Position numbers and translations under genes: made by a program
IMG/VR virus record: IMGVR_UViG_2936514734_000001
Span: 32,001 to 96,000 of that record
DNA length: 64,000 nucleotides
From: a virus
Taxonomy: Duplodnaviria; Caudoviricetes
Direction: 5' to 3' (one strand)
Shown: positions 23,965 through 54,592 of the stretch, in pieces
How the letters are laid out: every line of letters begins with the position of its first letter
Position numbering within the stretch: position 1 is the stretch's first letter
The notes under the pieces: model-generated
Seen by the model: the letters and a program-made list of their open reading frames with translations, nothing else
Database searches by the model: none
What the model was told of the DNA's origin: nothing

Positions 23965-24526
23965 AACTATAAGTGAACGAAGAAAAGCGGAGCTTAGAGG
24001 GGAATTAGAACTAGACTTTATCAATCAAATTATTATCGAACAAGGATATAACGCACTGTCTGTATATCAAAAGGAAGTTGTTAGTGACAAAGTTTCAGAT
24101 GGTGCAATACGTATTCTTGAAGTAGAAGATGATGAAATATTAGAATATGTAAAATCCATCAAGATTGAATTCTTTAAAAAGACATGTGAAGAACAAATAG
24201 AGCTTGGATTTACTTCTAGTAATGGACACTTCTATAGAACAAATCGTGATGACCAAGTTAATATGATTGGACAAAAAGATTCGTTAGTTGATGATCCATC
24301 AATTACTTATGTGGATTGGAAGACGGAAGATGTAGGATACATTCGTCATACAAAAGAGCAGTGGATGCAAGTTTACAACGAAGCTTTTGCTCATAAAAAA
24401 GATCAATTATTTAAATATGAAGCGTTAAAGCAACAAGTATTAGCAGCTACAAATCAAGATGAAGTCGCTTTAATACAATGGACAGAAGCTAAAATGGAAG
24501 TAAAAGTTCAAATGCTTGCTTCTTGA
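23939..24526 (+). CDS. DUF4376-like tail fibre assembly protein
   Basis: CEEQIELGF...HFY...DDQVNM...W.T...HT.EQ motif; located after fibre gene. Confidence 0.6.
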   Translation: MIMIQPNNKTISERRKAELRGELELDFINQIIIEQGYNALSVYQKEVVSDKVSDGAIRILEVEDDEILEYVKSIKIEFFKKTCEEQIELGFTSSNGHFYRTNRDDQVNMIGQKDSLVDDPSITYVDWKTEDVGYIRHTKEQWMQVYNEAFAHKKDQLFKYEALKQQVLAATNQDEVALIQWTEAKMEVKVQMLAS

Positions 24527-24552
24527 GAAACTATGTTCCAAATATTCAATAG
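24520..24552 (+). other. Ter-like replication terminator (RTP binding site)
   Basis: GAGAAACTATGTTCCAAATATTCAAT resembles B. subtilis TerI core CTATGTACCAAATGTTCAGT (17/20); 20-nt exact match to the site upstream of rtp. Confidence 0.75.
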
Positions 24553-24561
24553 GAGGAAAAA

Positions 24562-24783
24562 ATGATGGCTACACAAGTGGATTACTTAAACGAACCAATT
24601 AATGCGAACTTATATATTAAGGAGTTAGAAGAAGAGGTAACTCGATTAACGACTCAGAATTTAAAATTGAGAAGTTTAGTACAGCAATATGGAATAAAAG
24701 CAAATCAACATCCAGCACCACCTGCTCCAGAAGCAATACCGGAACAGCCAGTTCCAGCAGAGCCAAGAGTGGTTAAACAATAG
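24562..24783 (+). CDS. small coiled-coil protein with Pro-rich tail
   Basis: AGGAGG SD; ORF track. Confidence 0.65.
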   Translation: MMATQVDYLNEPINANLYIKELEEEVTRLTTQNLKLRSLVQQYGIKANQHPAPPAPEAIPEQPVPAEPRVVKQ

Positions 24784-24861
24784 TTGACTGGTATATAGCG
24801 AATGGTTACGTTCATGAGGGAGCAGATTAGCTCCCTCTTATTTTATTTTGGAGGTGTTTTC

Positions 24862-25236
24862 GTGACACAGATTCGTATTCGTTCCATTGTAAATGGCGAA
24901 GCTTCTCCTTGGTTATATACTCAAGACGAAATTAAGCAGGAGACTCCAAAAGCTAAAGTTTTTAAAATTGAAGCAACTCCTGTTACAGTACAACGTTCAC
25001 GAGTAAATCAATACGGACGTTTTCGTTATAGTGAAATGCAATATGGAGAAATTGAGAGACTATTAAATTCTTCAATAGAAGTAAGCACAACACCTATACG
25101 TATTAAAGCTCCTAATGGTAGCTGGATCTATTCACAGCAAGCAGTAGTTGACGGAGCTTGTCCGGCTATTCGTATTAGAAGTAAATATGGTAACAGTTTA
25201 AGTCCATGGGTTTATATCCAACAAGAGGAGGTGTAA
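24862..25236 (+). CDS. hypothetical structural protein with three IRI..W.Y.Q repeats
   Basis: GGAGGTG SD before GTG 24862; internal repeats. Confidence 0.6.
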   Translation: MTQIRIRSIVNGEASPWLYTQDEIKQETPKAKVFKIEATPVTVQRSRVNQYGRFRYSEMQYGEIERLLNSSIEVSTTPIRIKAPNGSWIYSQQAVVDGACPAIRIRSKYGNSLSPWVYIQQEEV

Positions 25237-25238
25237 GT

Positions 25239-26009
25239 ATGGAGTACTTGCAAAATTACCTATCTGTTTTACCTGACTACGATAGAAAAGAAGTAGAGCA
25301 GCTTATTCAGGACAATATGGATTTATTCGATGTAAAAGCAATCACAAAAGAAGAATTCGAAGCCCTTTTAAATCAATTAGCTAATCGAAGTGAAAAGGTT
25401 ACAACCTTAGAACCTACAGGTGACAAAGTAGATGCAGAACATTTTAACACAATGCACTCTAACGTCGCGCTTGATTTAAAACGCTTATATAATTCTCACT
25501 CTATTTTAGAGAAAGTAATTGCAAACTACGACAGGATTTTAAGAGGTACACTCGATGATGTAAAAAGAGAAGTGGATTCTCTTGCCACTCGTGTAGAGGA
25601 ACTAAACCTTAAAGCAAAAGGTGAGGATGGGTTAGTTATTAAAACATATGGTTTTGATGAAAAAGAAAAGAATCTTTACATGGAAACAGACCGAAATAAA
25701 TATGCTCATTTGTTTTTAGATAGAGACGACAAACCCCTACCTAATGCAGAATTAAACCGTAGTTTTCAACAGCATTATTTATCTTTACCTATACGTGAAG
25801 TAGAAAATGCATTACAAGATAGTAGTGGAAAAGTAACCGCTAAAATTGAAGTTCAAACAGTTAGTCCTAATGTTATTACAGATGAAAATCATCCGCTTAA
25901 ATATGCAATCGATGAATCCAAAGATACGTATTGGGCACAAGCAGTTAAACTGAGTGAACCAGCCTATACTGAAACAACGAAAATATTTAAAGACATACAA
26001 AAGATGTAG
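25239..26009 (+). CDS. structural protein, N-terminal part of a split coiled-coil/discoidin-like paralog
   Basis: GGAGGTG SD; coiled coil followed by AIDESKDTYW motif. Confidence 0.65.
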   Translation: MEYLQNYLSVLPDYDRKEVEQLIQDNMDLFDVKAITKEEFEALLNQLANRSEKVTTLEPTGDKVDAEHFNTMHSNVALDLKRLYNSHSILEKVIANYDRILRGTLDDVKREVDSLATRVEELNLKAKGEDGLVIKTYGFDEKEKNLYMETDRNKYAHLFLDRDDKPLPNAELNRSFQQHYLSLPIREVENALQDSSGKVTAKIEVQTVSPNVITDENHPLKYAIDESKDTYWAQAVKLSEPAYTETTKIFKDIQKM

Positions 26010-26024
26010 AAAGGAGGATTTTAA

Positions 26025-26975
26025 GTGAATAGTGTTACGTATATTGAGCAGCAGTTTTCATTTTCTGTATCTGAATTTGAAGGTTTGTGGTCAATGACAT
26101 TTATGCATCCTTACAATAGGGAAGAACATCTGAGTATTTATTTGGTTGCTCCTAATAGTGATTATGACGAAAGTAAGATAACCGACGACAAACCTATTGT
26201 AGAAGCAGGGCCAAGGTTAACTGACTTTTTAAATCATCTATTATATAAGATTGAATACTATCCATATACTTGGGATTTAGCCGGTAAGAAAATTGTATCG
26301 TTTGGATATGACTTTGAATGTGACTATAATGGTACGTCTCTAACTGAGATTGATTTTACAGAAATCGCATTTAAAGAAGTAAACGAATACTACAACTTCT
26401 TCTCACCGCTTGAAGCAGATATAGTGACCCCTGACGAAACAGTAAGTGGAAAAGGTGTTATGGCAAAATTAAAGATTACATTGGATAAACCAAAGTATGT
26501 CAATCACTTAAACATTGATTATTTTACAGAATATCCAATCGAATTATTAACCCTTATGTATAGAGCAGATGAAAGTTCAGATGCTACTATCTATGAAATT
26601 CCGCTATCTAAAGCTGTTCAAACAAACAGTTCTATTCATCTTCATTTCTCCCCGGTTTTCGCTAAGACTTTTTATCTAATCATCAAGCAAGAATCTTATA
26701 CCCTATTAGATGGTTCTAAATCTGAGGCAGATATCAGTAAAGAAGAAATATGGAAGCAAGCTTCTACAGTAAGCAAATCTATGTATGAAGCCGCTGTTGG
26801 TGATTACATTAGTCAATTATTCGCAACAAAATCTGCTGTTGATCTACATCAAACGATTATGGATAGTTACCAAAACATAAACAAAAATCTCACTGATCCT
26901 TCAATGGAACCTATGAATGAATATAGAAATGATTTTAATAAAATCAAGACAGTTCTTGATAGTCAACAAAGATAG
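26025..26975 (+). CDS. structural protein, middle part of the split paralog
   Basis: AAGGAGG SD with GTG start; LKITLDKPKYVNHL...HFSPVFAK..LIIKQ motif. Confidence 0.65.
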   Translation: MNSVTYIEQQFSFSVSEFEGLWSMTFMHPYNREEHLSIYLVAPNSDYDESKITDDKPIVEAGPRLTDFLNHLLYKIEYYPYTWDLAGKKIVSFGYDFECDYNGTSLTEIDFTEIAFKEVNEYYNFFSPLEADIVTPDETVSGKGVMAKLKITLDKPKYVNHLNIDYFTEYPIELLTLMYRADESSDATIYEIPLSKAVQTNSSIHLHFSPVFAKTFYLIIKQESYTLLDGSKSEADISKEEIWKQASTVSKSMYEAAVGDYISQLFATKSAVDLHQTIMDSYQNINKNLTDPSMEPMNEYRNDFNKIKTVLDSQQR

Positions 26976-26989
26976 AGAGGAGGATACCT

Positions 26990-28210
26990 TTGGGTACAAA
27001 TAATTTTGAATATGCAAGCAAACCAAAAACAGTATCTGTTCAGAACCAAACAACTCAAGCGAGTAGCAAAACTCCTGGTCCGCTGCCTTCCTTACTAAAT
27101 GGAGAGACAGCTAGTAAAAAGATAAATAGTTCAACAGGCTATGTATACCAATATGGCATTAAGAATATCGGATTAAGTCATTCTCTATACAGCCAAGCAG
27201 GAATCTTTGTAACTAAGCCAATTGATGTAGAAGGTAACATTGTAGAGGTTTCATTGTCTACATCTGAAGACCATCCTTTATTTAATGAATTAGATGGAAT
27301 GGCTACAGATCGTGTCACCTCAATCGAATACTATATTTCTTTAGAAGAAAATCCTTCACCAAATGATTGGGTTCCTATTCTTCCAGAAGAAACTAAAACA
27401 GTTAAATGCGAGAAGCTTTTCTTTCAGGGTTCTAGTGCAAGGCTTAGATTTACAGCTGATATAAGCGATGAAGAAAATACAGATGTATATAAAAACAACA
27501 TCTTAATTAGTAAGGATGACTGGTACTTTACAGATCGTGGAGCATCTATTCAACTCTCTGCTCCCCGTGATCAAAGTGCAATATACACAATCGATTATGT
27601 ACCTGACTCTGATTTATTAGATCCTTGGACAGTTAAAGTAGGAGATAGGTTCTCTAAAAGAGTTAGACAAACTGAACACTTCCCGAACGGAACGGATTCT
27701 AACAACACTATTAAGCTTTCTAAGTATCCTTTCATTGATTACGACCTAGTGAATCAATCTTCAAATTATGACCCAAATAAGAGTGATTACAGGCCCATAG
27801 ATGTATTCCTAACTGACGCAACAATTACTTCTGGTAACGGTCAAATCCAGAAAGAGTTTTATCCAATGGCGTACTCTAATAAGGAAGAGTTTATTACTAA
27901 GAACTGTACCGACTATAAAAACAGCAAAGATGCTTCATTGAATAAATACAGTATTAATCCTGATTCAACTTATAAAGTAATGGAGTATAAACAGGAAAAG
28001 AATAAGCTTATCTTTACAGAGAGCTTTAACCGTTCAAATCTATACTACAACGAAGCTACAAATCACGGGAATGCTACTATTGTCGTTCAATATGATTACC
28101 TTGTAACAAGTTTCCGCTTGAAAATTATCCTTAGAAAGAATACAGGTGATGAACTGGTAGTGACACCTTTAACAAACAGCTACCAGTTAAAATTCAAAGT
28201 TATGAAGTAA
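26990..28210 (+). CDS. structural protein, C-terminal part of the split paralog
   Basis: GAGGAGG SD with TTG start; YQYGIKNI...G.FVTKP...IEYYIS...WVPI motif. Confidence 0.65.
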   Translation: MGTNNFEYASKPKTVSVQNQTTQASSKTPGPLPSLLNGETASKKINSSTGYVYQYGIKNIGLSHSLYSQAGIFVTKPIDVEGNIVEVSLSTSEDHPLFNELDGMATDRVTSIEYYISLEENPSPNDWVPILPEETKTVKCEKLFFQGSSARLRFTADISDEENTDVYKNNILISKDDWYFTDRGASIQLSAPRDQSAIYTIDYVPDSDLLDPWTVKVGDRFSKRVRQTEHFPNGTDSNNTIKLSKYPFIDYDLVNQSSNYDPNKSDYRPIDVFLTDATITSGNGQIQKEFYPMAYSNKEEFITKNCTDYKNSKDASLNKYSINPDSTYKVMEYKQEKNKLIFTESFNRSNLYYNEATNHGNATIVVQYDYLVTSFRLKIILRKNTGDELVVTPLTNSYQLKFKVMK

Positions 28211-28223
28211 AGGAGGTGCTAGC

Positions 28224-30005
28224 ATGGAAGCTCCTGTTATTGAATCAAAGATTCTAGAACAACAAAAAGAATATTTACTAGAGCAAGCTAAAGTAAGACT
28301 AGGTAGTGCCGCTACTCAAGAAGAAGTATCTCAATTAGCCGATGAAATTTTTTATCGTTATCAGTCTTGTATCGGTAGACCTTTATTTCAAGCCAGACAG
28401 GTAGTGTATGGAGAATTACCTTTCTTGGAAGATTACTATGAGAACAATAAAGAAATGGAGAAAGATTTAGCCATTCTTTTTTCAGAGTTAAACACGATTG
28501 CTACTTATCTAGTTGACTACTTTAATTATTCTCAATCTGAAAAAGAACGCATTATGACGATTGTGAGAGGGATTAATGGTGTAGTGACAGATCTTCAAAT
28601 GTTAACAGAAGAAACTACACCTAACACAGTATATCTAAAGGAGTCATTTACGAACTACGATAATGTAGATGTTGACCTTACGGATATTGAAAACCGCTGT
28701 ATGATCCACACCGAAGAAGGGGTTTTAACTTTACGCCGTACAGGTGCAACAAATCGAAGCATCGGAAGTAAAGTCCGAACCATTCAAGGAAATGGAATGA
28801 AGGGTACATATTATTTAGCTCGTAAAATATCTGCAGAAACCGATTACGATAATTATGAATATGTTTCTACTCAGATAACAAATGATTCCGAAGATGCATT
28901 GATTGATGGTAACGTTGATACTGTTTATGAATATCAACTAGTAAACATTCCTGAAAGCTATAAAAAACAAGCATCTTATTATGATGTAGAGTGGGCAAAA
29001 GGGGATGAACATAATGATTTGTTAAGATTGAAAATTGTTGTTCAACTACCAGAAGTTCAAACAATTAACTGGATTGACTTAAAACCCTATCATGCCGCGG
29101 GAAGTCCTGGTACTGTCAATGTCTATTCTGTTCGTACATCCGCTGATGGAATTAACTACAAAGGCTTATTCCAAGATGATGAATTTGTTTTGAGTCAGCA
29201 GGTTAACGGAACTCCACAAAGCTACCGAGCTGAAGACTTATTTGACGGTAGTGAAGATTTTGCTAATACGAAATTCACAGGGCAGGGCGTATGGAGTTTT
29301 CCTTCAAGAGAAGCTAAATACATTGAATTTGTATTAGAGCAACCTAACTCATACAAAGAACTATTAGGACAGGAAGCATACTATAGAAGAAAAGCGGATT
29401 CTGGTTCGTGGACACGTATTCCCAAACAAGAAGTTCCTAGTAATATCGTAGATGAAAAATACGGTATTCATACAGTTAACGGAGATTATGAAATTAAAAA
29501 AGTTTTAGAGACTGTTGAAGGTTGGCGTTATGCTATTGGTGTTCGTGACATCCAAATCATGAGCTTTGAATTTGATGAAGCAAGTGAATATATTAGTAAG
29601 CCTTTTAGAGTGGAAGATGGCATTAAAAAGTTATTACTTTATGCCAATGAAAAAGTTCCTTCTATTTATAAAGATACAGTAAGTGAGTCGAACGATTGGA
29701 TTCAATACGCTGTATCTTTTGATGATATTGATTGGTACCGTATCTCTCCACAACATCATCAACCTGTAAATGATTCTTTCCCCGCTAAGATTCTTTCTAT
29801 AAATGACAATGAATCCGACATAGCAAGCGCATTTGAGCTTCATAAACAAAATATAAAGTTAGGTGAATTACCTACTCAAGTACGCCTTAAGATTACAATG
29901 AAGCGCCCTGAGAAGAGTAAAGAAGATGAAATTCCGCTTCTTAACACAACGCCTATGGTTGAAGACTTTGCTTTAAAAATTCTCACAGAACAGAAAGAGG
30001 TGTAG
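28224..30005 (+). CDS. structural protein, coiled-coil plus discoidin-like family
   Basis: ALIDGNVDT, FPSREAKYIEF and YAIGVRDI motifs. Confidence 0.65.
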   Translation: MEAPVIESKILEQQKEYLLEQAKVRLGSAATQEEVSQLADEIFYRYQSCIGRPLFQARQVVYGELPFLEDYYENNKEMEKDLAILFSELNTIATYLVDYFNYSQSEKERIMTIVRGINGVVTDLQMLTEETTPNTVYLKESFTNYDNVDVDLTDIENRCMIHTEEGVLTLRRTGATNRSIGSKVRTIQGNGMKGTYYLARKISAETDYDNYEYVSTQITNDSEDALIDGNVDTVYEYQLVNIPESYKKQASYYDVEWAKGDEHNDLLRLKIVVQLPEVQTINWIDLKPYHAAGSPGTVNVYSVRTSADGINYKGLFQDDEFVLSQQVNGTPQSYRAEDLFDGSEDFANTKFTGQGVWSFPSREAKYIEFVLEQPNSYKELLGQEAYYRRKADSGSWTRIPKQEVPSNIVDEKYGIHTVNGDYEIKKVLETVEGWRYAIGVRDIQIMSFEFDEASEYISKPFRVEDGIKKLLLYANEKVPSIYKDTVSESNDWIQYAVSFDDIDWYRISPQHHQPVNDSFPAKILSINDNESDIASAFELHKQNIKLGELPTQVRLKITMKRPEKSKEDEIPLLNTTPMVEDFALKILTEQKEV

Positions 30006-30008
30006 GAA

Positions 30009-32060
30009 ATGTCCATTAACATTAGACAAAAACGATTTACTGTAGCAGTTAATCAAATACTTCAAGAAGAATTACAAAAAGGAAATCTTCCTACATCAAA
30101 AGAATTCGCTACACGTTTAAATAAGTTACTCAGAGAGCAGGATCTAGCTGCTCCTGAGTATGACTTTAGACGCGTGCGTAATAGTGAATTAGCTGAATCT
30201 GCATTCTACAATGAAGTAGTTACAAAGATTCAAAAAGACCTCATGATTCTTTATGAAAATACGATTGCTGTTCATAATGAATTACAAGGTAAGTTTAATT
30301 GGTTTGAAGTAGAGAAAAATCGCTTGGAGTATACAGCTAGAAAATTAGAGGCCGAGCTTAAAGAGAAGATTCTTCTGTACGGGAAAACAGGTTATTTAGC
30401 TAGTGTATTTGACACTTTCGATGATGTATCAAAGATAGATACAGAAGATAATGTTTCTATAGATATTAAAAACCATCAAGTAACACTTAAGCAGCAGGAA
30501 AATACATCGTTCCTTATTACACCTACAAGTAAGATTAGCTTTTCTATGCCGAGTACCGCTACATCCACTTTTAAAAAGATTCCTATTTCCGGCAAGATCG
30601 AACACGCTCTCAATACAAATAACAACGAAACATTTCAAGAGGTCTGGTTGGCTAAGTCAGAAGGGCCGGCAGATGGATTTATCAATATCGATTTTCAAGA
30701 GAAGCAGGTCTTAAACCGAATAGATGTAAGTGTTCATACTTTAAAAGATGTAACAATATACGTGGAATTTACATCTGATGGAACTAACTATTATCACCTT
30801 CCTTACTATCCTGAAGGTAAAATCACAAACAACAGTCTTTCATTCTTTTTCCCTACAACGGAAATGAAGAGTATGCGTATATGGATTAGAAAACAAGAAA
30901 GCGATAAAGAAGTCGTTCACCCTCAAGGGTATTCGTATCAATATTTATTCGGCGTTAAAAAGATTCAATTCTTTCAACTAAGCTTTCCCGCTAGTGGAAA
31001 GATTGTCACTAAGATGCTCACACCTAACACTGACGAGAACTTCTCAATAGGCAAAGTATCCTTGGTAACAGAAGAAGAAATCCCCGATGGTACAGATATT
31101 GAATACTTTGTACGTGTAGATGAAAACGAAAACTGGAAACCTATTTCACCTGTTAATCGTGAAAGCGCAAAGGCTCCAAGTATTATTGATTTCAAATATG
31201 TAGTAAAGGGAAGTCCTACTAGTCTAGGCATTACTAGTAATACCAGCGGTCAAGAAGCTGAAATTATTGAGTTACAAGCTAATGGCATTTCGTTTTATTC
31301 TTTAGGTTCAATTGAGAAGCGCAAAATCATTCCTCGTACAGAGCGTTTATATATAGGAAAAGATGCTTGGAGTATTCAAAAAACAGAGCAAGATTTTGGT
31401 GCTACTCATATTCCTACTATGAATGATTGGAAGCAGCCCCCTAATGAAATTACTAAGTCTGTGATGCCCATTAAAGAGGGTAATCGCGGTGTTATCTTAC
31501 AGGAAGAAACTTTCACAAAACATACTCAACTTTATTATGGAATGGGTATTTATTATGAAGGGCAAGAGCAAGTTCTTTCTACAATTCCATCCTCAACAGA
31601 ACCTATTGCTATTTTCTTAAATGGTGAAAAACTATTTGAAGGCATTCCTTCTGCACAAACAAATGTTAACTACAAGTTCAAGCAGGGGTGGAATGACGTA
31701 ACAGTTTTAGTTTACGTACAAAGCTTAAGTAGATCCTGTACGATTGACCTAGGATTTGACCCAATTACAGTTAGTACACACTGCTATGCATCTAGTCAGC
31801 CACTAGAAAATGTCTCTGTATTTGACCTTCGTTATAATACAAAGAATAACGATTGGTCTAAGTACGCGCTTTACGAGAAAGATGGAAAAGTCTATATTGT
31901 GGTTAATCATTCGTTACCAGGTGTAACTTATGATTTTTATTATGACTATGTAGATGAAGTAGAACATCGAGAAGTTCAATTAAAAATCTCTTTAAAACAA
32001 TTTTCAGTAGGGCAGTATACAACTCCTGTATTACGCCGCTACACATTGCAATTTAGTTAG
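30009..32060 (+). CDS. structural protein, coiled-coil plus discoidin-like family
   Basis: Paralogous motifs FPTTEMKSMRI, YLFGVKKI, TDIEYFV..WKPISP. Confidence 0.65.
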   Translation: MSINIRQKRFTVAVNQILQEELQKGNLPTSKEFATRLNKLLREQDLAAPEYDFRRVRNSELAESAFYNEVVTKIQKDLMILYENTIAVHNELQGKFNWFEVEKNRLEYTARKLEAELKEKILLYGKTGYLASVFDTFDDVSKIDTEDNVSIDIKNHQVTLKQQENTSFLITPTSKISFSMPSTATSTFKKIPISGKIEHALNTNNNETFQEVWLAKSEGPADGFINIDFQEKQVLNRIDVSVHTLKDVTIYVEFTSDGTNYYHLPYYPEGKITNNSLSFFFPTTEMKSMRIWIRKQESDKEVVHPQGYSYQYLFGVKKIQFFQLSFPASGKIVTKMLTPNTDENFSIGKVSLVTEEEIPDGTDIEYFVRVDENENWKPISPVNRESAKAPSIIDFKYVVKGSPTSLGITSNTSGQEAEIIELQANGISFYSLGSIEKRKIIPRTERLYIGKDAWSIQKTEQDFGATHIPTMNDWKQPPNEITKSVMPIKEGNRGVILQEETFTKHTQLYYGMGIYYEGQEQVLSTIPSSTEPIAIFLNGEKLFEGIPSAQTNVNYKFKQGWNDVTVLVYVQSLSRSCTIDLGFDPITVSTHCYASSQPLENVSVFDLRYNTKNNDWSKYALYEKDGKVYIVVNHSLPGVTYDFYYDYVDEVEHREVQLKISLKQFSVGQYTTPVLRRYTLQFS

Positions 32061-32073
32061 GGGATGAAAGTCT

Positions 32074-32847
32074 ATGATAATTGAAAAGAAATACAAGCCT
32101 TCTTTTCATAAAGCAAATGCTCGGTATCGTGGGGTTACTGAGCTTTCCCAATATACAAACTTTGTTCTTGAATCCGCTCACGACTTGCTATTATTAAGCC
32201 AAATAACAACAGGTAGTGAAGCTGTAAATAAAAAGGGCCACGAGAAAGAACTTTATGATAACTTTGTATCGGTTATGACAGGTGATCAAGAGGTAGCTAA
32301 ATCTAATCTCTTTACCGCTTCAACTCTTCAAAAAATAGACCATTCTAGAACCGTACCTGTTCCTGCATTATCTAGTTGGAGTGCATTAAACGGATGTACA
32401 CTGTCTCAGGCAAACGGGATTTACAAATTAACTTCAAACGGATTGAAAGATCCTGTGGGAATGTATACAACATTGTATGTAGAACCCGGAGATAAAATCT
32501 ATATTCGACTATCAGTTAGAAGTAGTGGCGGTGCACCTGATTTTACTTTTGGTTCAAACAACATGAGACTTGGACCAGGAGAGAACGGTGACACCAAAAA
32601 GGTAGCTGTTCCTAATAACAATCAATTTATTATGGTGGATCATGTATTGAGATTTCAATATGCTGAATCCATTTCACTTAATTTAAATGTTCATCAAAAC
32701 CCCAATGTATTAGCAGCTTCTTCAGTAGAAGTAAAGGATTTAGAAATATTCTATTTTAAAGAAACACCTGTGCAGGTATCCTCATTCGATACAATTATTA
32801 AGCCATCTATAGATGAACTAGAAGAAAAAATAAATTCAATACGATAA
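32074..32847 (+). CDS. hypothetical structural protein
   Basis: ORF in structural operon. Confidence 0.55.
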   Translation: MIIEKKYKPSFHKANARYRGVTELSQYTNFVLESAHDLLLLSQITTGSEAVNKKGHEKELYDNFVSVMTGDQEVAKSNLFTASTLQKIDHSRTVPVPALSSWSALNGCTLSQANGIYKLTSNGLKDPVGMYTTLYVEPGDKIYIRLSVRSSGGAPDFTFGSNNMRLGPGENGDTKKVAVPNNNQFIMVDHVLRFQYAESISLNLNVHQNPNVLAASSVEVKDLEIFYFKETPVQVSSFDTIIKPSIDELEEKINSIR

Positions 32848-32858
32848 GGAGTGAGTAT

Positions 32859-34106
32859 ATGCGCCCAATTACTTTAAAGAATCCAAGTCTGCAAAAGGGG
32901 CCAAGCTCTTCTGAGGATTTTAATAAGTTACGTAATGACATTCAAACAGATATTACTACCTTATTTAATGTGGTGAATGATCATGAAGATGCAATTGCAA
33001 CTAACATGGACCATGTGATTCGTGAAAATTACTTTTTACAAAACCGCTTGTTAAAACTTCAGGAAAGAGTGAAGGAATTAGAAAACGATTATCAAGCTAA
33101 CAGCATAACAGGAGAAAGTATTCTTAATCGCTCTTTTTACCACGCAAGTAGTATTGCCTCTATTAATGCAAATAACCCCGTAAACGTAGATACTCTTCAC
33201 GGAATTGTTACACCGGTTGTCGTAAATTCTCATGATAAAATTGCATACAAAAATGATCTTGGTCAATATATTTTACCAAGTACATTAGAAGTATCTGTTT
33301 ATGAATCAACTGACGTAGAGCCTGTAGACGAAACAACAAAACAGCTTCAGTATTATGCAATTGATTCAACAGGTATCAATAAAGCTTTTGATGGTGATAA
33401 GAATTCATTTTGGGTTCGTCAATCTGAAACAAATGAGAATAAGTGTGTAACAGAGGTGTATGGCTTAATCCACGTAAAAATACCACAAGAAATTTCTAAT
33501 AACGTGTATACGAACACTCTCTTGCTTCATCCATCTCCCGAGTACTCTATGAGTATCATGGATATTCAATACAAAAACCAGAACGGGGAATGGCGTAGAC
33601 TAGAAACGTACCCTACAAAAATCGTAAGTAATGTTGAGACACCTGTAGAGATTGAAGAAACAGGTAAACTTGTATTCTCATTTCCCAAAAGACAGGTAAC
33701 TGAATTACAAATTTTTATTAAGCAGCCATACTGGTTTAAGCATGACAACAAACGCATTTTTATGTATGGATTTCAAGACATTGTAGTGGAGTACCGTGAG
33801 TATTCGCAAGACACTGCGGAATTTGTAACGAAGTTTTCATTAGAGGGTACGGATCGTCGCTTTGCTAATGTGGAAGCACCGCTGATTACAACACCTATAG
33901 GCTGTCCACCTTTTAATGACTACACAGTTAAACATGAGTTGTATTTCGATGAAGGATTAACTGAGCAGTTTGATTTCTCAACAGATATCTTTCAAACAGT
34001 ACAAGCTGTATATGTAAAGACTATTTTAAAAGTAGCAGGGGATCAGGTACCAATCCTAAGAGAAATTGAGTTACCTTATCGCTATGAAGAAATAGAACCC
34101 ATATAA
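32859..34106 (+). CDS. structural protein, coiled-coil plus discoidin-like family
   Basis: AFDGDKNSFW, FPKRQVTELQI and MYGFQDI motifs. Confidence 0.65.
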   Translation: MRPITLKNPSLQKGPSSSEDFNKLRNDIQTDITTLFNVVNDHEDAIATNMDHVIRENYFLQNRLLKLQERVKELENDYQANSITGESILNRSFYHASSIASINANNPVNVDTLHGIVTPVVVNSHDKIAYKNDLGQYILPSTLEVSVYESTDVEPVDETTKQLQYYAIDSTGINKAFDGDKNSFWVRQSETNENKCVTEVYGLIHVKIPQEISNNVYTNTLLLHPSPEYSMSIMDIQYKNQNGEWRRLETYPTKIVSNVETPVEIEETGKLVFSFPKRQVTELQIFIKQPYWFKHDNKRIFMYGFQDIVVEYREYSQDTAEFVTKFSLEGTDRRFANVEAPLITTPIGCPPFNDYTVKHELYFDEGLTEQFDFSTDIFQTVQAVYVKTILKVAGDQVPILREIELPYRYEEIEPI

Positions 34107-34146
34107 AAAAGGGGAGCATACCATAACGGCTATGCTCCTTTTTTAT
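34105..34146. terminator. bidirectional terminator ending the structural block
   Basis: A-tract GGGGAGCATA...TATGCTCCTT T-tract. Confidence 0.8.
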
Positions 34147-34346
34147 TATGAAATCAGAACAATCATACCAATTAATACTGCTGCAAATAACAAACCTAGA
34201 AAAGCACCTATTATCATTTTACCAAGAGTACCTGTTACAATTTCATGTTGCATTTCCTTGGCTTTTTGTTGGGAGTTTCCCGTTAAAATAAATGCCAAAA
34301 TAGAAACAATGATTAATAATAGTATAGCAATAATTACATAACTCAT
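34146..34346 (-). CDS. small protein with two transmembrane helices
   Basis: Two hydrophobic segments; AAGGAG SD. Confidence 0.65.
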   Translation of the reverse strand: MSYVIIAILLLIIVSILAFILTGNSQQKAKEMQHEIVTGTLGKMIIGAFLGLLFAAVLIGMIVLIS

Positions 34347-34651
34347 AGTACATTTATCTCCTTATACACTGTTATTTCATGAATATTATACCAATTAAAG
34401 TTCTTTTTGGGTGGCTATTTTTATGTTATAATATTATTGTTTCGCGTTATTAGCTCTATGCTAGTAATAAAAAAGAGTAGCTTTCCGAGGGCTACTCTTT
34501 TTGTATATATTCTTCTATAAATTCATTATTAAGTCTCCATAAAAAAAACAAATTCCTACATAAATATGGTATAATTGTTATATAACTATGTTTTCGGGTG
34601 GGCGGTTGCTCTTTTCCTTGCTCTATTTTATAGAGGAAGGAGGTGACCGCT

Positions 34652-34816
34652 ATGGATGTTTTAAAAACTATTTTAGTAGAAATAGCAAAAGTAGTAACTC
34701 ATACTCTAATTAACTACCTAATAAGTCTCATTCCTACTAAAAAACACAAAAAGAAAACCTCCCGCAAAAAGTCATGGGCGACTAAAGGGAGGTCTTCTAA
34801 AAGATATAGAGCTTAA
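34652..34816 (+). CDS. type I toxin-like peptide (54 aa, not in ORF track)
   Basis: MDVLKTILVEIAKVVTHTLINYLISLIPTKKHKKKTSRKKSWATKGRSSKRYRA; amphipathic N-terminus and basic tail; AAGGAGGTGA SD sequestered in a 5' hairpin; own extended -10 and terminator. Confidence 0.8.
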   Translation: MDVLKTILVEIAKVVTHTLINYLISLIPTKKHKKKTSRKKSWATKGRSSKRYRA

Positions 34817-34890
34817 ATTGCAATCTTCCACCTGAATGTAGTAGTTGCTAAAGGCGAGATGTTACCAGCATCTCGTCTTTTTTATGTATA
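34740..34890 (-). ncRNA. antisense antitoxin RNA of the type I TA locus (approximate ends)
   Basis: Minus-strand TGGTATAAT at ~34895-34903; terminator ACCTCCC...GGGAGGT plus T-tract inside the toxin ORF. Confidence 0.65.
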
Positions 34891-35084
34891 AACAATTATA
34901 CCAAATTTCCAAAAAAAAATATATAGGTAAAAACATAAAGGAGGAATTTAAACCCTTGATACTAAAGGGTTTATTTGCTTTTGAAATTCTTAAATTTAAA
35001 GATAAATACCCATAAATGAACAATATTATACATAAATATGGTACATTTGTTTAGTAGTTACATTTGAAAATAGGAGAGATGGGA

Positions 35085-35573
35085 ATGAGTTTTCAGTACA
35101 AAATAACAGATCAGAGTTATGATAAGGAATACAAAGTTTGGGAATATGATAAGATGAGAAAGGAATGTGCTCAACCGGGCGTATATATAATTACTGATAT
35201 TGCTCAAGAAATTCTTTATGTCGGTGAAAGTGAAAATGTTGGACAACGTGTTCGTGATCATATAACTGGAACTGAACAATCAAAACGTGGATTTATAAAA
35301 AGAATTTGCAATATAAGGATTTACCTTTTCGGTACATTAAATCGTGATATAACTGACATGAAAATGTGCGAACATTGGGCTAAAAGAGAATATCCACCAC
35401 TCTTTTCAAAAGATAGCATTGAGTACGATGGAGGAGATACTATTGAGTATTTATCTGACAGCTATACAGTCTGGGAGAATTGGCACAAATATTATGCTAC
35501 AGTAGATGACGAAGTAGTAGATGGAAAAGAATATCAAGAAAAACTTAAAGCAGCTAATTTGAAGCTAAAATAA
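35085..35573 (+). CDS. GIY-YIG nuclease family protein
   Basis: PGVYII...LYVGES.NV..R..DH motif. Confidence 0.8.
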   Translation: MSFQYKITDQSYDKEYKVWEYDKMRKECAQPGVYIITDIAQEILYVGESENVGQRVRDHITGTEQSKRGFIKRICNIRIYLFGTLNRDITDMKMCEHWAKREYPPLFSKDSIEYDGGDTIEYLSDSYTVWENWHKYYATVDDEVVDGKEYQEKLKAANLKLK

Positions 35574-35687
35574 AGGATTTTGTTTGACATCTTCTTTTAT
35601 AAGTGCAAAACTGTAGTATATATTGGCTACTACTCATAGATTTTTTCTAGAGTAGGAAAAAGAGCAGACCTTTTGGCTTGCTCTTTT

Positions 35688-35867
35688 TTATATATTCTTC
35701 TTCATACCACAATTGATACATTCACGCAGGAATTTACCGTTACCTACGCTACTTTTAAACTTTACTCCGTTACAATTATCGCAACGGCCGCTGACTTTAT
35801 CAGGCATCTCACTGTATTCATAAATCTTTGTTAGATCAATATTTGCGTATTTATCTTCTTGTTCCAT
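35688..35867 (-). CDS. small zinc-ribbon protein (59 aa, not in ORF track)
   Basis: MEQEDKYANIDLTKIYEYSEMPDKVSGRCDNC...LRECINCGMKKNI; GAGGGA SD; bidirectional terminator at stop. Confidence 0.75.
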   Translation of the reverse strand: MEQEDKYANIDLTKIYEYSEMPDKVSGRCDNCNGVKFKSSVGNGKFLRECINCGMKKNI

Positions 35868-36095
35868 CTTAATCCCTCACATTCTTTGCTTATCATAGCA
35901 ATATACATAATAAAAAGAAAGGTACTCGAATATATATGACGTAAAACTTTTTAATACAAGAAAAACCCCCGACAATACTTTCATTGCCGAGGGCTTTTCG
36001 CTGTTGAGTAATTTGAATTTAATAAAGTAGTGGTAACGAGTTAGTGAGGCTCGTTAAAATTATTATAGACATTTTTCTACATTATATTCTAACAG

Positions 36096-40980: not shown

Positions 40981-41008
40981 GGTTCCTATAATATATCTTA
41001 TGTAAACT
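40981..41008 (+). other. dif site (XerC/XerD = CodV/RipX target)
   Basis: GGTTCCTATAA-TATATC-TTATGTAAACT versus B. subtilis dif ACTTCCTAGAA-TATATA-TTATGTAAACT (24/28, XerD arm identical). Confidence 0.85.
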
Positions 41009-41076
41009 AGAAAAAGAAATAAGAGAAAAGCTTACCCTTTTTTGAGTAAGCCTACATTATATAAATTCTATAAATT

Positions 41077-42240: not shown

Positions 42241-42382
42241 CGAATCTCTCCCCTTAGTTATATGTAACTATCCACTTGCTATGACTATGATACTACTAAA
42301 ATTCCAGCAGAACCACATATTCTCATATTCAAATTTCGACAAAAAAAAGAGCAGCTTAACGCTACTCTTCTTGTGTACACGA

Positions 42383-43213
42383 TTAAGGCATCGGTATAGC
42401 CTGAACCGCCTCTATAAATTGTGGTATAGTAGTTGCTAATGCTGTACCAGCACCAGCTAATCCTGTCACATTAGTTAATGCAGTTGTTGCTCTTCTAATT
42501 AATGAAGGCTTTACTTCCTCACCATTTTCAACTTTTTTAGCTATTTCCTCTACATGATCAATAGCATCTTCTTTCAGCTCTGCATTATCAATATTAGAAT
42601 CTTTTAAAAGCTGAATAAGTTCTTTTGCAATTGATTGTATACCTTCACCTTCATGATTATTATTAGTTTGATTTAATGTAGTATCCCCATATACATCTCC
42701 TTCGTTAGACAGAAAGTTTCCTACAGAAGAATTATTGAATACGTATTTTGCATTTTGTTTTCCTTCAATACCCATTTTTATCGCTTTCTCCTCTAAATAA
42801 GACGTAATATGATCAACTAGTAGATTAACTACTTCTCTATTGAAATTTTTAATCATGTTAACTATCTTTCTGCCCTCACGATATGGAAAAGCAAAATCAT
42901 AATACGACAGATTATTCTCTGTAATATGCTTAAGAAGTTGATAGATATAACTAACTTCTTCATTTTCATCAAATGGAAGATCAAATTTATCTTCGCCATT
43001 TTTTTCTTCAATAATTTTATTAAAGTCATATACTCGCGTGTGGTTCTTTTCAATAAAATCTTTAATGATTGGTTCTTTATCTATTGTGCTAATAAATCTT
43101 TTGGTTAGTCGCAGCGCCTCGTCCATATCAGTTGCTCTGAGCATTTGACCAAAAGCTTTTCTAAAGTTTTTAGATAAAATTTTAAAATCTTCATATGACA
43201 TAACTATTTCCAT
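42383..43213 (-). CDS. hypothetical protein, candidate defence gene
   Basis: 276 aa; Asn-rich linker and C-terminal helical bundle; abuts the upstream Zn-finger gene. Confidence 0.6.
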   Translation of the reverse strand: MEIVMSYEDFKILSKNFRKAFGQMLRATDMDEALRLTKRFISTIDKEPIIKDFIEKNHTRVYDFNKIIEEKNGEDKFDLPFDENEEVSYIYQLLKHITENNLSYYDFAFPYREGRKIVNMIKNFNREVVNLLVDHITSYLEEKAIKMGIEGKQNAKYVFNNSSVGNFLSNEGDVYGDTTLNQTNNNHEGEGIQSIAKELIQLLKDSNIDNAELKEDAIDHVEEIAKKVENGEEVKPSLIRRATTALTNVTGLAGAGTALATTIPQFIEAVQAIPMP

Positions 43214-43672
43214 TTAATTCACCCCACAATACGGACAGTATGGGCCCGCACTCGCCTTTATTAGAGTAGAAACCTTTGCTTTCTTTAAGCAGCATTGAAA
43301 CTCTACAATATCGTAGTCATTTTGCTCAAAAAGCGGTTGAGGACTGATGCTGGGCTTTAAAGGCTTTCCTGGTTTGAATGTGACATTTTTATTTCCCTTA
43401 AAGATTTTACCAATATCCTTAACGGCTTCATTAAGTAAGTCTATTGCATATTGTTCTGCTTCTGCGTTTGCATTCTCAATAATATCTTCAGTAAGGAACT
43501 CAGAAGGTTCTTGTGGAATTCCACAAGAAGGGCAGAAAATTTGCAGCACATGGTCTTCCTCCACGTCTCCTGGTACAAGCTTAAAACCCTCACTACACAG
43601 GCTACACTCGAAAGAAGAAAAACCATCGTGGTCAGTTTGCTTAGTTATTTCTATTCTTTTTTCCACTAACAT
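43214..43672 (-). CDS. zinc-ribbon protein
   Basis: CSLC..CPSC and CC..CPYC motifs; GAGGAG SD. Confidence 0.7.
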   Translation of the reverse strand: MLVEKRIEITKQTDHDGFSSFECSLCSEGFKLVPGDVEEDHVLQIFCPSCGIPQEPSEFLTEDIIENANAEAEQYAIDLLNEAVKDIGKIFKGNKNVTFKPGKPLKPSISPQPLFEQNDYDIVEFQCCLKKAKVSTLIKASAGPYCPYCGVN

Positions 43673-43842
43673 TTCTCCTCTCTTATACATCAAATATAGA
43701 TTTGCAAAAAGATGCTATATTTCTACAACCTTGGATATATTTACTTATAATTATAGCAAAAAAAAAGAGAGTAGTCGCGACGAACCACTCAAAAACTACC
43801 GATTAGATTAACTTGAGAAATTAATGTGTAGAATAGTATGAA

Positions 43843-43870
43843 CCACATTATGTCATATCTTATGTAAACT
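43843..43870 (+). other. dif-like site (intact XerD arm, degenerate XerC arm)
   Basis: CCACATTATGT-CATATC-TTATGTAAACT; downstream flank also repeats that of the 40981 site. Confidence 0.65.
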
Positions 43871-43895
43871 AGAAAAGGAAATAAAGGAAACCTAC

Positions 43896-49703: not shown

Positions 49704-49781
49704 TGAAACACTCCCCTTTTCTAACTAGTATAGAAAGTATTTAGTCGTTGTCAAGAAAGATGAAATAAAAGAAATATTTTA

Positions 49782-50036
49782 CTATGCCGCTTTATAAAGA
49801 TCAACGATCTCTTCAAGCTCAGCTGGATTATATTTAAGAGTACGCTTAATTTCCTTGTCACCATCCATAAGAATAACAACAGGAACACCATATCCAATTT
49901 TTAATTCAGCGGCTTTTTTAGCGCCTTCAGAATCCATTACATTATAAGATGTAACCTCTACACCTTGATCTTCTAAGTAATTACTTACAGGTACACAAGT
50001 AGTGCAACTCGGTTGATAAAATTTAAGAATTTCCAT
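49782..50036 (-). CDS. thioredoxin/NrdH-like redoxin
   Basis: KFYQPSCTTC and VP motifs; downstream of RNR genes. Confidence 0.8.
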   Translation of the reverse strand: MEILKFYQPSCTTCVPVSNYLEDQGVEVTSYNVMDSEGAKKAAELKIGYGVPVVILMDGDKEIKRTLKYNPAELEEIVDLYKAA

Positions 50037-50063
50037 ATTAATACCGTCCTTATTTATTAAATC

Positions 50064-51113: not shown

Positions 51114-51139
51114 TATTTATTCCTCCAAGGTGTTTTATA

Positions 51140-53452: not shown

Positions 53453-53492
53453 GTAAATTCCTCCCTTAATGTTTTTTAAATTCCCGAGCGGC

Positions 53493-53508
53493 AAACTACA
53501 TATAGTAG
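53493..53508. promoter_or_regulatory. NrdR box-like operator
   Basis: AAACTACATATAGTAG matches acaCwAtATaTwGtg consensus ~40 bp upstream of nrdA. Confidence 0.6.
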
Positions 53509-53640
53509 CTCGCTTCGTGAAAGGTCAGTTTTTAATACAACCATTAGATATTAAAAAGTCAAACTGATTTATGAACAAACTAATGTTCTAAATTTAGACA
53601 ATAAAAAAGACTCAGGGTTATATCCTCAGCCTTTAAATAC

Positions 53641-54027
53641 TTATCCAGTTTGTGTATTTCTTTCTGGTGTTTCTACAAGAAAAGATACATTCTCATAAAT
53701 TGTAGAGCCACTTCCAACGGTGCTAGTGCCATGGTTTATATGGCTAATAAGCCCTTCAAACTCTTCACCACTGAAAAATATGAGATGCACTTTGTTTTGC
53801 TTGCTCATATCTATTTCATTAGGAATAATAGCTTGATTAAAGTTTAAATTATACCCTAAGAATGGATGATGATCTCCTATCTTCATTGGCGAACCATCTT
53901 CATGAACAGGATTCCCCATTGTATACATAACAACTGTTCCCTCTGGTCCACCTATTGGACTAACATGACTATCTTGAAACTTGATTTGATGATGATTAAT
54001 CCAACAACTTTTTAAAGCTTTGTTCAT
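53641..54027 (-). CDS. hypothetical protein
   Basis: GGGTGA SD; downstream of rtp. Confidence 0.6.
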   Translation of the reverse strand: MNKALKSCWINHHQIKFQDSHVSPIGGPEGTVVMYTMGNPVHEDGSPMKIGDHHPFLGYNLNFNQAIIPNEIDMSKQNKVHLIFFSGEEFEGLISHINHGTSTVGSGSTIYENVSFLVETPERNTQTG

Positions 54028-54038
54028 TCTTTCACCCC

Positions 54039-54425
54039 TTATCTAACAGGGCCGTAATGATCCTCTAAAGCTTTATCCAATAACCCCCTACACCGTTCAA
54101 GCTCAACTTTCATTTGCTTCTTATAAAGGTCATATTCTTTCTTTCCTTCATCCGTAAGTGAGTATAGGATAATCTCTTGAAAATCAACGCCCTTCTCCCC
54201 TTTGATTTGGCGTTCCCTTTTGACTAACCCATCCCTAGTCAATTCGTGTAATACTTTATATGTTTCTGTATGAGTAGGTTCATACCCATACTGTTTAAAT
54301 TCTTTACGTAAATCCCCTAAATATTGAGACGCATACCCTTTATGCTTATCAATTGTCTTGTATATGTATAGCTTCAAAAATGCACGTTGCTTTAATAAGA
54401 AACCTCTATTTTTAAACTCACTCAT
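54039..54425 (-). CDS. rtp: replication terminator protein
   Basis: GFLLKQRAFLKLY...EF...G..P.HTE.Y..LHEL..DG...QE..LY...YKKQ.KVEL.RC..L..KAL.D closely follows B. subtilis RTP. Confidence 0.9.
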   Translation of the reverse strand: MSEFKNRGFLLKQRAFLKLYIYKTIDKHKGYASQYLGDLRKEFKQYGYEPTHTETYKVLHELTRDGLVKRERQIKGEKGVDFQEIILYSLTDEGKKEYDLYKKQMKVELERCRGLLDKALEDHYGPVR

Positions 54426-54449
54426 TATATACACACCTTTCGAAAGTGT

Positions 54450-54471
54450 AAAACCATGTTCTATTGATTCA
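54450..54471 (+). other. weaker Ter-like site just downstream of the rtp promoter
   Basis: AAAACCATGTTC..N5..ATTCA, inverted relative to the 54560 site. Confidence 0.45.
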
Positions 54472-54480
54472 TCTTATATT

Positions 54481-54509
54481 ATTATACATTTATTAGGATT
54501 TACCTTCAA
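54481..54509 (-). promoter_or_regulatory. sigma-A promoter of rtp
   Basis: TTGAAG-17-TATAAT on the minus strand. Confidence 0.7.
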
Positions 54510-54559
54510 AAAATATACAGATTTGAATGAATCCGTCTTATAAGCTAACGTATTAATAA

Positions 54560-54592
54560 CTATTGAATATTTGGAACATGGTTTTTGAGAAA
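54560..54592 (-). other. Ter-like replication terminator upstream of rtp
   Basis: TTTCTCAAAAACCATGTTCCAAATATTCAATAG; 28/33 identical to 24520-24552. Confidence 0.8.

What the first reader, a model, noticed from the sequence alone, without database searches (positions are those of the whole stretch)
24520..54592. Element-encoded RTP/Ter replication fork trap enclosing a dif site
Seen: an rtp gene (54039-54425); two sites sharing the exact 20-mer ATGTTCCAAATATTCAATAG in opposite orientation, 30 kb apart (24520 +, 54560 -); gene orientation converging between them; a dif site at 40981. Known: B. subtilis TerI has the core CTATGTACCAAATGTTCAGT, and RTP-Ter blocks forks arriving at the core (B) side. 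Here both B sides face inward. Inference: an element with a large virion module replicates as a bidirectional theta circle with a chromosome-like terminus (fork trap plus Xer dimer resolution), as expected of a jumbo phage-plasmid. The substitutions in its Ter core may give specificity distinct from the host RTP.
Basis: partly seen in the sequence, partly recalled or inferred. Interest (0 to 1): 0.9.

Follow-up and report, generated by a model that had tools for sequence, protein, structure and literature searches.

The report
Phage-plasmid with its own replication fork trap
A 239-kb jumbo phage-plasmid of Bacillus-type bacteria carries its own replication terminator protein and two inward-facing stop sites around a dimer-resolution site, a small copy of the Bacillus subtilis chromosome terminus; the same layout in relatives explains puzzling published sequencing-coverage steps.

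Summary
The exact 20-mer occurs only twice in the whole 239,374-bp replicon: window 24533 (+) and 54560 (-). rtp (54039-54425, -) is a full-length RTP homolog (Pfam 3.5e-42; PDB 1bm9 4e-28). A dif-like site lies at 40982-41009, and genes converge between the two sites.

- Four relatives each have exactly two strong sites, always pointing at each other and 19-30 kb apart: B. velezensis pAD3, B. thuringiensis pBtic235, Cytobacillus pN497-ZHONG and an IMG/VR contig.
- One site always sits upstream of rtp, in the position and orientation of B. subtilis TerI.
- The two sites of a replicon carry the same core substitutions.
- The distal site sits next to different genes in different members, which argues against a gene-specific operator.
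- Published read coverage of pBtic235 in strain 4Q7 (PMC8116677) steps at 225.5 kb and 15 kb. My predicted sites are at 225.35 and 14.33 kb, and the polarity fits.

Caveats:
- GC skew here mostly follows gene strand, so it is not independent evidence.
- The origin and theta replication are inferred.
- The A site is weak.
- The rtp homolog of pBtic235 was already noted in the literature, but I found no description of Ter sites or a trap.

The parts
24520..24552 (+). Distal Ter-like site. The conserved core is 24528-24552 (AAACTATGTTCCAAATATTCAATAG), and the blocking (3', B-like) end faces right, into the trap. It lies in a 35-bp gap between a tail-fibre gene and a 73-aa ORF inside the virion operon.
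54560..54592 (-). rtp-proximal Ter-like site, core 54560-54584. It reads in the sense of rtp, about 135 bp upstream of the rtp start. The blocking end faces left, towards rtp and into the trap. It is the positional and orientational counterpart of B. subtilis TerI.
54039..54425 (-). rtp: a 128-aa replication terminator protein homolog, located inside the trap.
54450..54461 (+). Weak inverted half-site AAAACCATGTTC in the rtp leader. It is conserved in own, pAD3 and pBtic235 but not in pN497. It may be a TerII-like remnant or an autoregulatory operator.
54481..54509 (-). Promoter-like site for rtp (TTGAAG-17-TATAAT), lying between the Ter site and the half-site. The -10 region is conserved in relatives.
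40982..41009 (+). dif-like Xer site between the two Ter sites.
43843..43878 (+). Partial second dif. The spacer end, XerD-type arm and flank match the first site at 23 of 24 bases, but the left arm is unrelated. With the first dif it bounds a 2.9-kb cassette, which reads as a footprint of Xer-type insertion.
34107..36095 (.). Zone where + strand and - strand gene blocks converge, and where cumulative GC skew peaks.
357..34106 (+). Virion module: tail, tail-fibre and virion structural proteins. Transcription runs towards the trap and passes the distal Ter from its permissive side.

Best explanation
The window lies in a pBtic235-type jumbo phage-plasmid that carries a self-contained RTP/Ter replication fork trap. 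The element's RTP binds two 25-bp Ter sites, at window 24.5 kb and 54.6 kb, whose blocking ends face each other. Forks can enter the 30-kb interval but cannot leave it. Replication in the plasmid state therefore ends in a defined zone that also holds the dimer-resolution site. In this element that site is a dif used by host XerCD-type recombinases; in relatives it is an element-encoded XerS. The proximal site probably also takes part in rtp autoregulation, as TerI/TerII do in B. subtilis. If the origin is the divergent intergenic region at genome ~210.6 kb, the fork crossing the virion arm reaches the rtp-proximal Ter first and waits there, as the clockwise fork does at TerI. Shown here: the protein family, the site pair, their conservation, orientation and co-variation, and the dif. 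Inferred: RTP binding, polar arrest in this element, the origin, and theta replication.
For: (1) RTP family membership is clear.
(2) There are exactly two strong sites per replicon, always arranged -> <- and 19-30 kb apart, with rtp just inside. This holds in the own replicon, pAD3, pBtic235, pN497-ZHONG and IMG/VR contig G001.
(3) The core matches the B. subtilis consensus KMACTAANWNNWCTATGTACYAAATNTTC (PMC3317982) at 16 of 17 positions of the CTATGTACYAAATNTTC part at the distal site, and at 15 of 17 at the rtp-proximal site.
(4) In the B. subtilis group, the TerI-type site lies upstream of rtp in the same sense orientation, with an inverted second site nearer the gene. Reviews state that forks reaching the B side are arrested, and that rtp and dif lie between terI/II and terVIII.
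(5) The two sites co-vary within a replicon. pN497 has the same two substitutions in both sites, and pAD3 has the same A-to-T change in both.
(6) The distal site is next to different genes in different members, and no promoter lies beside it.
(7) The dimer-resolution function sits inside the trap in every member. That is dif here, where no tyrosine recombinase is encoded, and xerS in the relatives.
(8) Published data on pBtic235 in strain 4Q7 show 1.5-fold over-coverage. It runs from 225.5 kb through 0 to 48.6 kb in one lineage, which has a chromosome junction at 48,586, and from 210 kb through 0 to 15 kb in another. Only one junction per element was found. The junction-free borders match my sites at 225,347 and 14,326. 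In each case the fork would pass the first site from its 5' side and stop at the 3' end of the second.
Against: No binding or arrest has been measured for this element. The coverage argument is my reading of rounded figures in a paper about a relative.
The A site is only weakly recognisable: a kTTC at -14 to -11, where B. subtilis has KMAC.
GC skew follows the coding strand. GC3 skew shows a replichore signal only in pAD3, so skew and gene convergence are one piece of evidence, not two.
Both sites read in the sense of local transcription, which a transcriptional role would also predict.
The contig is linear in IMG/VR with no end overlap.
No replication initiator was identified at the presumed origin.
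A fork trap would obstruct rolling-circle replication in the lytic cycle, so it must be switched off or overcome at that stage. This is unexplained.
Confidence: 0.8

Rival explanations
1. The RTP homolog is only a PadR-like transcription factor. The two sites are operators, one for autoregulation and one acting as a roadblock or regulator in the late virion operon, with no role in replication.
For: The protein also hits PadR weakly. The proximal site lies in the rtp promoter region, with a conserved -10 and an inverted half-site. Both sites read in the sense of the local transcription unit. In B. subtilis, RTP does autoregulate through Ter sites.
Against: The distal site sits inside the operon in own and pBtic235, but after the last virion gene in pAD3 and pN497, so no single gene is its target. 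No promoter lies beside it. The protein is a full-length RTP, with a Ter core nearly identical to that of B. subtilis. The pBtic235 coverage steps at both sites are a DNA-level effect, not a transcript-level one.
Confidence: 0.12
2. The inverted 20-25-mers are recombination or packaging signals (an invertible segment, att or pac), or a chance repeat, unrelated to RTP.
For: They are short inverted repeats flanking a 30-kb segment. The terminase and virion genes are on the same arm.
Against: Chance is excluded. No recombinase of any tyrosine type is encoded. The core equals the RTP B-site consensus, and one copy always sits upstream of rtp. Gene order between the sites is collinear with pBtic235, not inverted.
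Confidence: 0.03

Closest known systems
Bacillus subtilis RTP/Ter terminus (terVIII ... dif ... rtp-terII-terI)
   Same: Same protein family, about 48% identity over the full length. The Ter B-type core is nearly identical. A Ter site lies upstream of rtp in the sense orientation with its blocking side towards rtp. rtp and dif lie inside the trap. If the origin is where I place it, the arms are unequal, so one fork reaches the rtp-proximal site first.
   Different: It sits on a mobile 239-kb phage-plasmid, not a chromosome. It has two sites rather than nine. The core has TGTTC instead of TGTAC. The A site is poorly conserved. The partner of the proximal site is 30 kb away, and only a weak half-site remains where TerII would be. 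The RTP belongs to a separate clade.
pBtic235 of B. thuringiensis sv. israelensis (Gillis 2017; Bolotin 2020, PMC8116677)
   Same: A syntenic jumbo phage-plasmid with 78% identical RTP. The virion module is homologous and the divergent region is conserved. The two-site arrangement is the same, and the proximal 20-mer is identical.
   Different: pBtic235 has xerS next to rtp and no B. subtilis-type dif. This element has dif and no recombinase. The literature noted the rtp gene and speculated about termination. I found no description of Ter sites or a trap in the papers I could search.
Tus/Ter on plasmids (R6K, R1) and the proposed plasmid origin of tus (Galli 2019, PMC6549158)
   Same: A polar fork barrier system carried by an extrachromosomal replicon, with the terminator gene next to one of its sites.
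   Different: The protein and the sites are unrelated. Galli et al. reported RTP only in a subgroup of Bacillales and did not analyse mobile copies.
Brevibacillus phage Jenst 'putative replication termination protein'
   Same: A phage-encoded RTP homolog with Ter-like sites upstream of its gene. These include a recognisable A site, AAACTAATTGCAGTATGTACTAATTGTAC.
   Different: Jenst has only an adjacent inverted pair 43 bp apart and no distant partner. Its RTP is 37% identical. It belongs to a different phage type, with a 126-kb linear record.

Membership tests
RTP protein family (PF02334) | Profile match above the curated cut-off over the whole domain | tested here: met
   143.9 bits against a 26.7-bit cut-off, profile positions 1-113 of 113
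RTP protein family (PF02334) | Full-length similarity to the solved B. subtilis RTP, including the recognition helix and the C-terminal dimerisation helix | tested here: met
   1bm9 at E=4e-28, query residues 6-124 against chain residues 8-122. HTE.Y..LHEL is kept, Y33 is kept, and E30 is replaced by H
RTP protein family (PF02334) | Dimer that binds Ter DNA | not testable with these tools
No fold or complex prediction was run, because sequence homology to solved structures was already clear.
RTP/Ter fork trap | Sites matching the Ter B (core) consensus | tested here: met
   16 of 17 (distal) and 15 of 17 (proximal) to CTATGTACYAAATNTTC. Scores are 31-37 bits against a background of 16 bits or less
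RTP/Ter fork trap | Adjacent weaker A site 5' of the core | tested here: inconclusive
   Only a kTTC at -14 to -11 and an A-rich stretch are seen. This flank co-varies within replicons but does not match KMACTAA
RTP/Ter fork trap | Ter site upstream of rtp, blocking side towards the gene | tested here: met
   Same sense orientation as the TerI-type site of B. spizizenii, B. atrophaeus and B. velezensis
RTP/Ter fork trap | Sites of opposite polarity that let forks in but not out, bracketing the terminus | tested here: met
   The -> <- arrangement is found in five replicons, and the gene-convergence and skew maximum lie between the sites in the four replicons analysed. The terminus itself is defined only by skew and gene orientation.
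RTP/Ter fork trap | Polar fork arrest in vivo | not testable with these tools
   Indirect evidence only: published pBtic235 coverage borders at 225.5 and 15 kb, against predicted sites at 225.35 and 14.33 kb
Xer/dif dimer resolution | 28-bp site with two arms and a 6-bp spacer resembling Firmicute dif | tested here: met
   22 of 24 bases match the dif printed in PMC8116677. It is unique in the replicon apart from a half copy
Xer/dif dimer resolution | Cognate recombinases available | not testable with these tools
   None is encoded on the element. The host is unknown, so host XerCD-type enzymes must be assumed.
pBtic235-type jumbo phage-plasmid | Synteny and homology of virion and plasmid-like modules; size of 220-245 kb | tested here: met
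pBtic235-type jumbo phage-plasmid | Circular extrachromosomal maintenance and inducibility | not testable with these tools
   The IMG/VR record is linear with no end repeats. These properties are shown only for pBtic235, in the literature.

The most novel reading that the evidence does not exclude
RTP/Ter fork traps are mobile modules carried by jumbo phage-plasmids, with their own RTP clade and a co-evolved TGTTC core, so they would work independently of any host RTP. The trap would keep the prophage in once-per-cycle theta mode by blocking run-on or rolling-circle forks until induction. When the element joins a chromosome, as in B. thuringiensis 4Q7, its Ter sites stop chromosomal forks. This would give RTP a mobile-element history parallel to that proposed for Tus.
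Probability: 0.3. Interest if true: 0.8.

Novelty: new variant of a known kind. Interest (0 to 1): 0.62.

Why it matters
RTP/Ter is one of only two known bacterial fork-trap systems, and it has been treated as a chromosomal feature of a narrow Bacillus group.

A complete minimal trap (protein, two opposed sites, dimer-resolution site) on a transmissible phage-plasmid gives a small, dispensable replicon on which polar arrest can be dissected genetically.

It suggests that fork traps move horizontally.

It offers a concrete explanation for the unexplained over-coverage borders of pBtic235 in the widely used strain 4Q7. It also explains how a B. cereus-group cell, which has no rtp of its own, can still show RTP-type arrest.

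Finally, it raises the question of how a phage reconciles a fork trap with lytic replication.

Tried and rejected
- GC3-skew test to separate replication from transcription: the result was ambiguous. A replichore signal appeared only in pAD3, while all-position skew follows the gene strand. Skew is therefore not used as independent proof.
- Search for extra or weaker Ter sites: none scored above background.
- The 128-aa ORF 53641-54027 next to rtp is not an RTP paralog and has no Pfam or PHROG hit.
- Pfam and PHROGs on the conserved 1461-aa ORF and its neighbours at the presumed origin identified no initiator.
- B. subtilis-type Ter patterns near rtp were not found in three other plasmid groups: the B. 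velezensis 215-kb, B. licheniformis 205-kb and Paenibacillus 79-kb plasmids. This does not show those plasmids lack Ter sites.
It was repeated with 4 sequences.
- PMC146460, which prints the TerI A and B sites, is not held. The identity of the crystal B-site oligonucleotide therefore rests on my memory. Polarity was instead anchored on reviews, the chromosomal loci and the coverage data.
- Sequencing runs holding the element are kept only as contigs, so no marker-frequency analysis was possible and read laying was not used.
- The rival readings of chance repeat and of invertible-segment or packaging signal were considered and rejected; see the rival explanations.
Full report
**What is there**

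The window is bases 32001-96000 of a single 239,374-bp contig with 36% G+C. It is held as an IMG/VR virus record, with no terminal overlap and an estimated completeness of 100%.

No shuffle of the sequence gave two matches.
- The whole replicon holds only these two copies.
- The ORF at 54039-54425 (-) is a clear RTP. It scores 143.9 bits against Pfam PF02334 over the whole profile. It aligns with residues 8-122 of the solved B. subtilis protein at E=4e-28.
- A dif-like 28-mer lies at 40982-41009. It matches 22 of 24 bases of the B. cereus-group dif printed in PMC8116677.
- Genes run on the + strand up to about 34.1 kb and on the - strand from about 36.1 kb.
- The + block is a virion module of tail, tail-fibre and structural proteins.

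**What kind of element**

The nearest records are large circular plasmids. They are B. velezensis pAD3 (220 kb), the 235-kb pBtic235 of B. thuringiensis sv. israelensis, and Cytobacillus pN497-ZHONG (240 kb).

pBtic235 is a published inducible jumbo phage-plasmid whose virion genes resemble those of phage 0305phi8-36. The virion genes and the divergent region of the present element are syntenic with it. Calling this element a jumbo phage-plasmid is therefore justified by homology. Circular maintenance of this particular contig is not shown.

**The comparative test**

Each relative has exactly two strong sites.

| Replicon | Site 1 | Site 2 |
|---|---|---|
| pAD3 | 154,490 (+) | 173,251 (-) |
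| pBtic235 | 225,347 (+) | 14,326 (-) |
| pN497-ZHONG | 136,841 (+) | 163,154 (-) |
| IMG/VR contig, 244,829 bp | 25,763 (+) | 51,627 (-) |

- A weight matrix scores the pairs at 31-37 bits and everything else at 16 bits or less.
- In every case the motifs point at each other and lie 19-30 kb apart.
- One site lies 120-160 bp upstream of rtp and reads in the sense of rtp, so rtp is inside the interval.
- The two sites of one replicon share their substitutions. Both pN497 sites read ATGTGCCAAATCTTCAATAG, and both pAD3 sites have AATTTTC. This is expected if one protein reads both sites.
- The distal site is not tied to one gene. In this element and in pBtic235 it fills a 35-bp gap inside the virion operon. 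In pAD3 and pN497 it follows the last virion structural gene.
- No promoter-like site adjoins the distal site here.

**Relation to B. subtilis Ter**

The published consensus is KMACTAANWNNWCTATGTACYAAATNTTC (PMC3317982). The element core CTATGTTCCAAATATTC differs from its 3' part at one position at the distal site and at two at the proximal site.

Reviews state that forks reaching the B side are arrested. They also state that rtp and dif lie between terI/terII and terVIII (PMC10331603 and PMC13220808).

In chromosomal loci of B. spizizenii, B. atrophaeus and B. velezensis, the site with core CTATGTACCAAATGTTC lies about 170-200 bp upstream of rtp, reading in the sense of rtp. An inverted second site lies nearer the gene. 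The element's proximal site has that same position and orientation. A weak inverted half-site (54450-54461) stands where TerII would be.

The A site is the weak point. Only a kTTC at -14 to -11 is seen where B. subtilis has KMAC.

**Independent experimental support from a relative**

Bolotin et al. (PMC8116677) aligned reads of three samples of the cured strain 4Q7 to the 235,424-bp pBtic235 of AM65-52. This is the same record and the same coordinates as my W02.

- In two samples coverage was about 1.5-fold higher from 225.5 kb through the record origin to 48.6 kb, with split reads joining 48,586 to the chromosome.
- In the third sample it was higher from 210 kb through the origin to 15 kb.
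- Only one element-chromosome junction was found where integration would need two.
- The authors noted that rtp and a Xer gene lie near the 225-kb border, but could not explain the pattern.

The two junction-free borders coincide with my sites at 225.35 and 14.33 kb.

A fork entering at 48.6 kb and moving down would pass the 14.3-kb site from its 5' side. It would then stop at the 3' end of the 225.35-kb site. A fork entering near 210 kb and moving up would do the mirror image.

This gives the polarity without any assumption about A and B sites. It remains my reading of rounded figures, and re-mapping the reads is the decisive check.

**What is not independent, or not shown**

- Cumulative GC skew peaks between the sites in all four replicons analysed.
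- All-position skew follows the coding strand, however, and third-position skew shows a replichore signal only in pAD3.
- Genes are almost perfectly co-oriented in two blocks. Skew and gene convergence therefore count as one observation.
- The blocks diverge at genome ~210.6 kb, between a conserved 1461-aa ORF and a gp49-like gene. This point is syntenic with the skew minima of all four replicons.
- That intergenic region carries 4-5 direct RGTCAGGA repeats in three of the four replicons, where about 0.1 would be expected; pAD3 has two.
- Bolotin et al. mention a gradual coverage rise near 100 kb in pBtic235, which fits the divergent region at 95 kb.
- No initiator protein was recognised there.

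If that region is the origin, the antipode lies at or just beyond the rtp-proximal site in all four replicons. This follows from my arithmetic on the coordinates. The fork crossing the virion arm would then be the one held at the proximal site, as at TerI.

**Dimer resolution**

- The element encodes no tyrosine recombinase, so dif would depend on host enzymes.
- The relatives lack this dif but carry xerS inside the trap next to rtp.
- A second, partial dif at 43,855 repeats the right arm and flank (23 of 24 bases) 2.9 kb from the first. It suggests the site is a live substrate.

**Distribution and history**

RTP homologs occur on 26 plasmid records of Bacillus, Paenibacillus and Brevibacillus, and in Brevibacillus phages. 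Phage Jenst has an adjacent inverted Ter pair with a good A site.

In a tree of 87 RTPs the four phage-plasmid proteins form a supported group (97/88). They fall in a clade with sequences from B. testis, B. massiliigorillae and Peribacillus. That clade is apart from the large clade of B. subtilis-group, Priestia, Metabacillus and Anoxybacillaceae sequences, which follows host taxonomy. The tree rests on only 119 alignment columns.

Loci of that sister group also show CTATGTTC cores upstream of rtp. The TGTTC variant therefore goes with the protein clade. pAD3 lives in a host whose own RTP belongs to the other clade. Separate specificity is plausible but untested.

**Novelty**

The rtp homolog of pBtic235 (48% identical to B. 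subtilis RTP) and a guess at a termination role are already in print. Galli et al. reported RTP only in a subgroup of Bacillales and gave no account of mobile copies.

In the papers I could search I found no description of Ter sites, their polarity, or a trap on these elements. The library lacks most subscription journals, including the Gillis 2017 paper itself.

**Verdict**

This is a real and conserved feature. It is best read as a minimal, element-borne RTP/Ter fork trap enclosing the dimer-resolution site (confidence about 0.8). The main rival is a purely transcriptional role for the protein (about 0.12).

Noticed in passing
window 41010-43842: A 2.9-kb cassette lies between the full dif and the partial dif. 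It holds three - strand ORFs, including a 387-aa Big_6 (bacterial Ig) protein at 41077-42240, and no recombinase. It looks like a Xer-mediated insertion.
   Followed up: partly
window 53641-54027 (-): A 128-aa ORF lies directly downstream of rtp with no Pfam or PHROG hit and no similarity to RTP. In relatives, xerS (pAD3), a small unannotated ORF followed by xerS (pBtic235) or further HTH genes (pN497) lie downstream of rtp.
   Followed up: partly
L001:9391-9602, and the equivalent regions upstream of xerS in pBtic235 and pN497: Upstream of xerS in relatives there is a LexA (Cheo)-box-like CGAACnnnnGTTCT in pAD3 and pN497 (degenerate in pBtic235). There is also a conserved motif, AATACAACCnTTnGA ... 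GTCAAT, which could be the XerS recombination site.
   Followed up: no
L048:12555-12950 (genome 210,555-210,950, outside the window): The divergent intergenic region between a conserved 1461-aa ORF of unknown family and a gp49-like gene carries 4-5 direct RGTCAGGA repeats where about 0.06 is expected. The same is seen in pBtic235 (about 80-bp spacing) and pN497; pAD3 has two. These are candidate iterons or promoter elements.
   Followed up: partly
L048:16723-19674 (+): The large terminase subunit is interrupted by an intein with a LAGLIDADG domain.
   Followed up: no
L048:13286-13558 (+): A Tad2-like (Thoeris anti-defence) gene lies next to the divergent region.
   Followed up: no
KT151955.1 60,875-60,953 (L051:1351-1430): Brevibacillus phage Jenst has two inverted Ter sites 43 bp apart upstream of its rtp homolog, with an A site matching the B. 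subtilis consensus. There are no other copies in its 126-kb genome.
   Followed up: partly
L061, L062, L065, L060: The closest non-element RTPs (68% identity) lie in large scaffolds of B. testis (at 2.13 of 3.9 Mb) and B. massiliigorillae (at 1.58 of 3.5 Mb), and in Peribacillus. Several have CTATGTTC-type cores upstream. These may be chromosomal traps of the same subfamily or integrated elements.
   Followed up: partly
window 54769-55422 (-), 55711-56607 (-), 56826-58007 (-): Just outside the trap, a block of a sigma-like HTH protein, an S8 peptidase and a nucleoside transporter is conserved with pAD3 and pBtic235. Class I ribonucleotide reductase genes lie just inside the trap.
   Followed up: no
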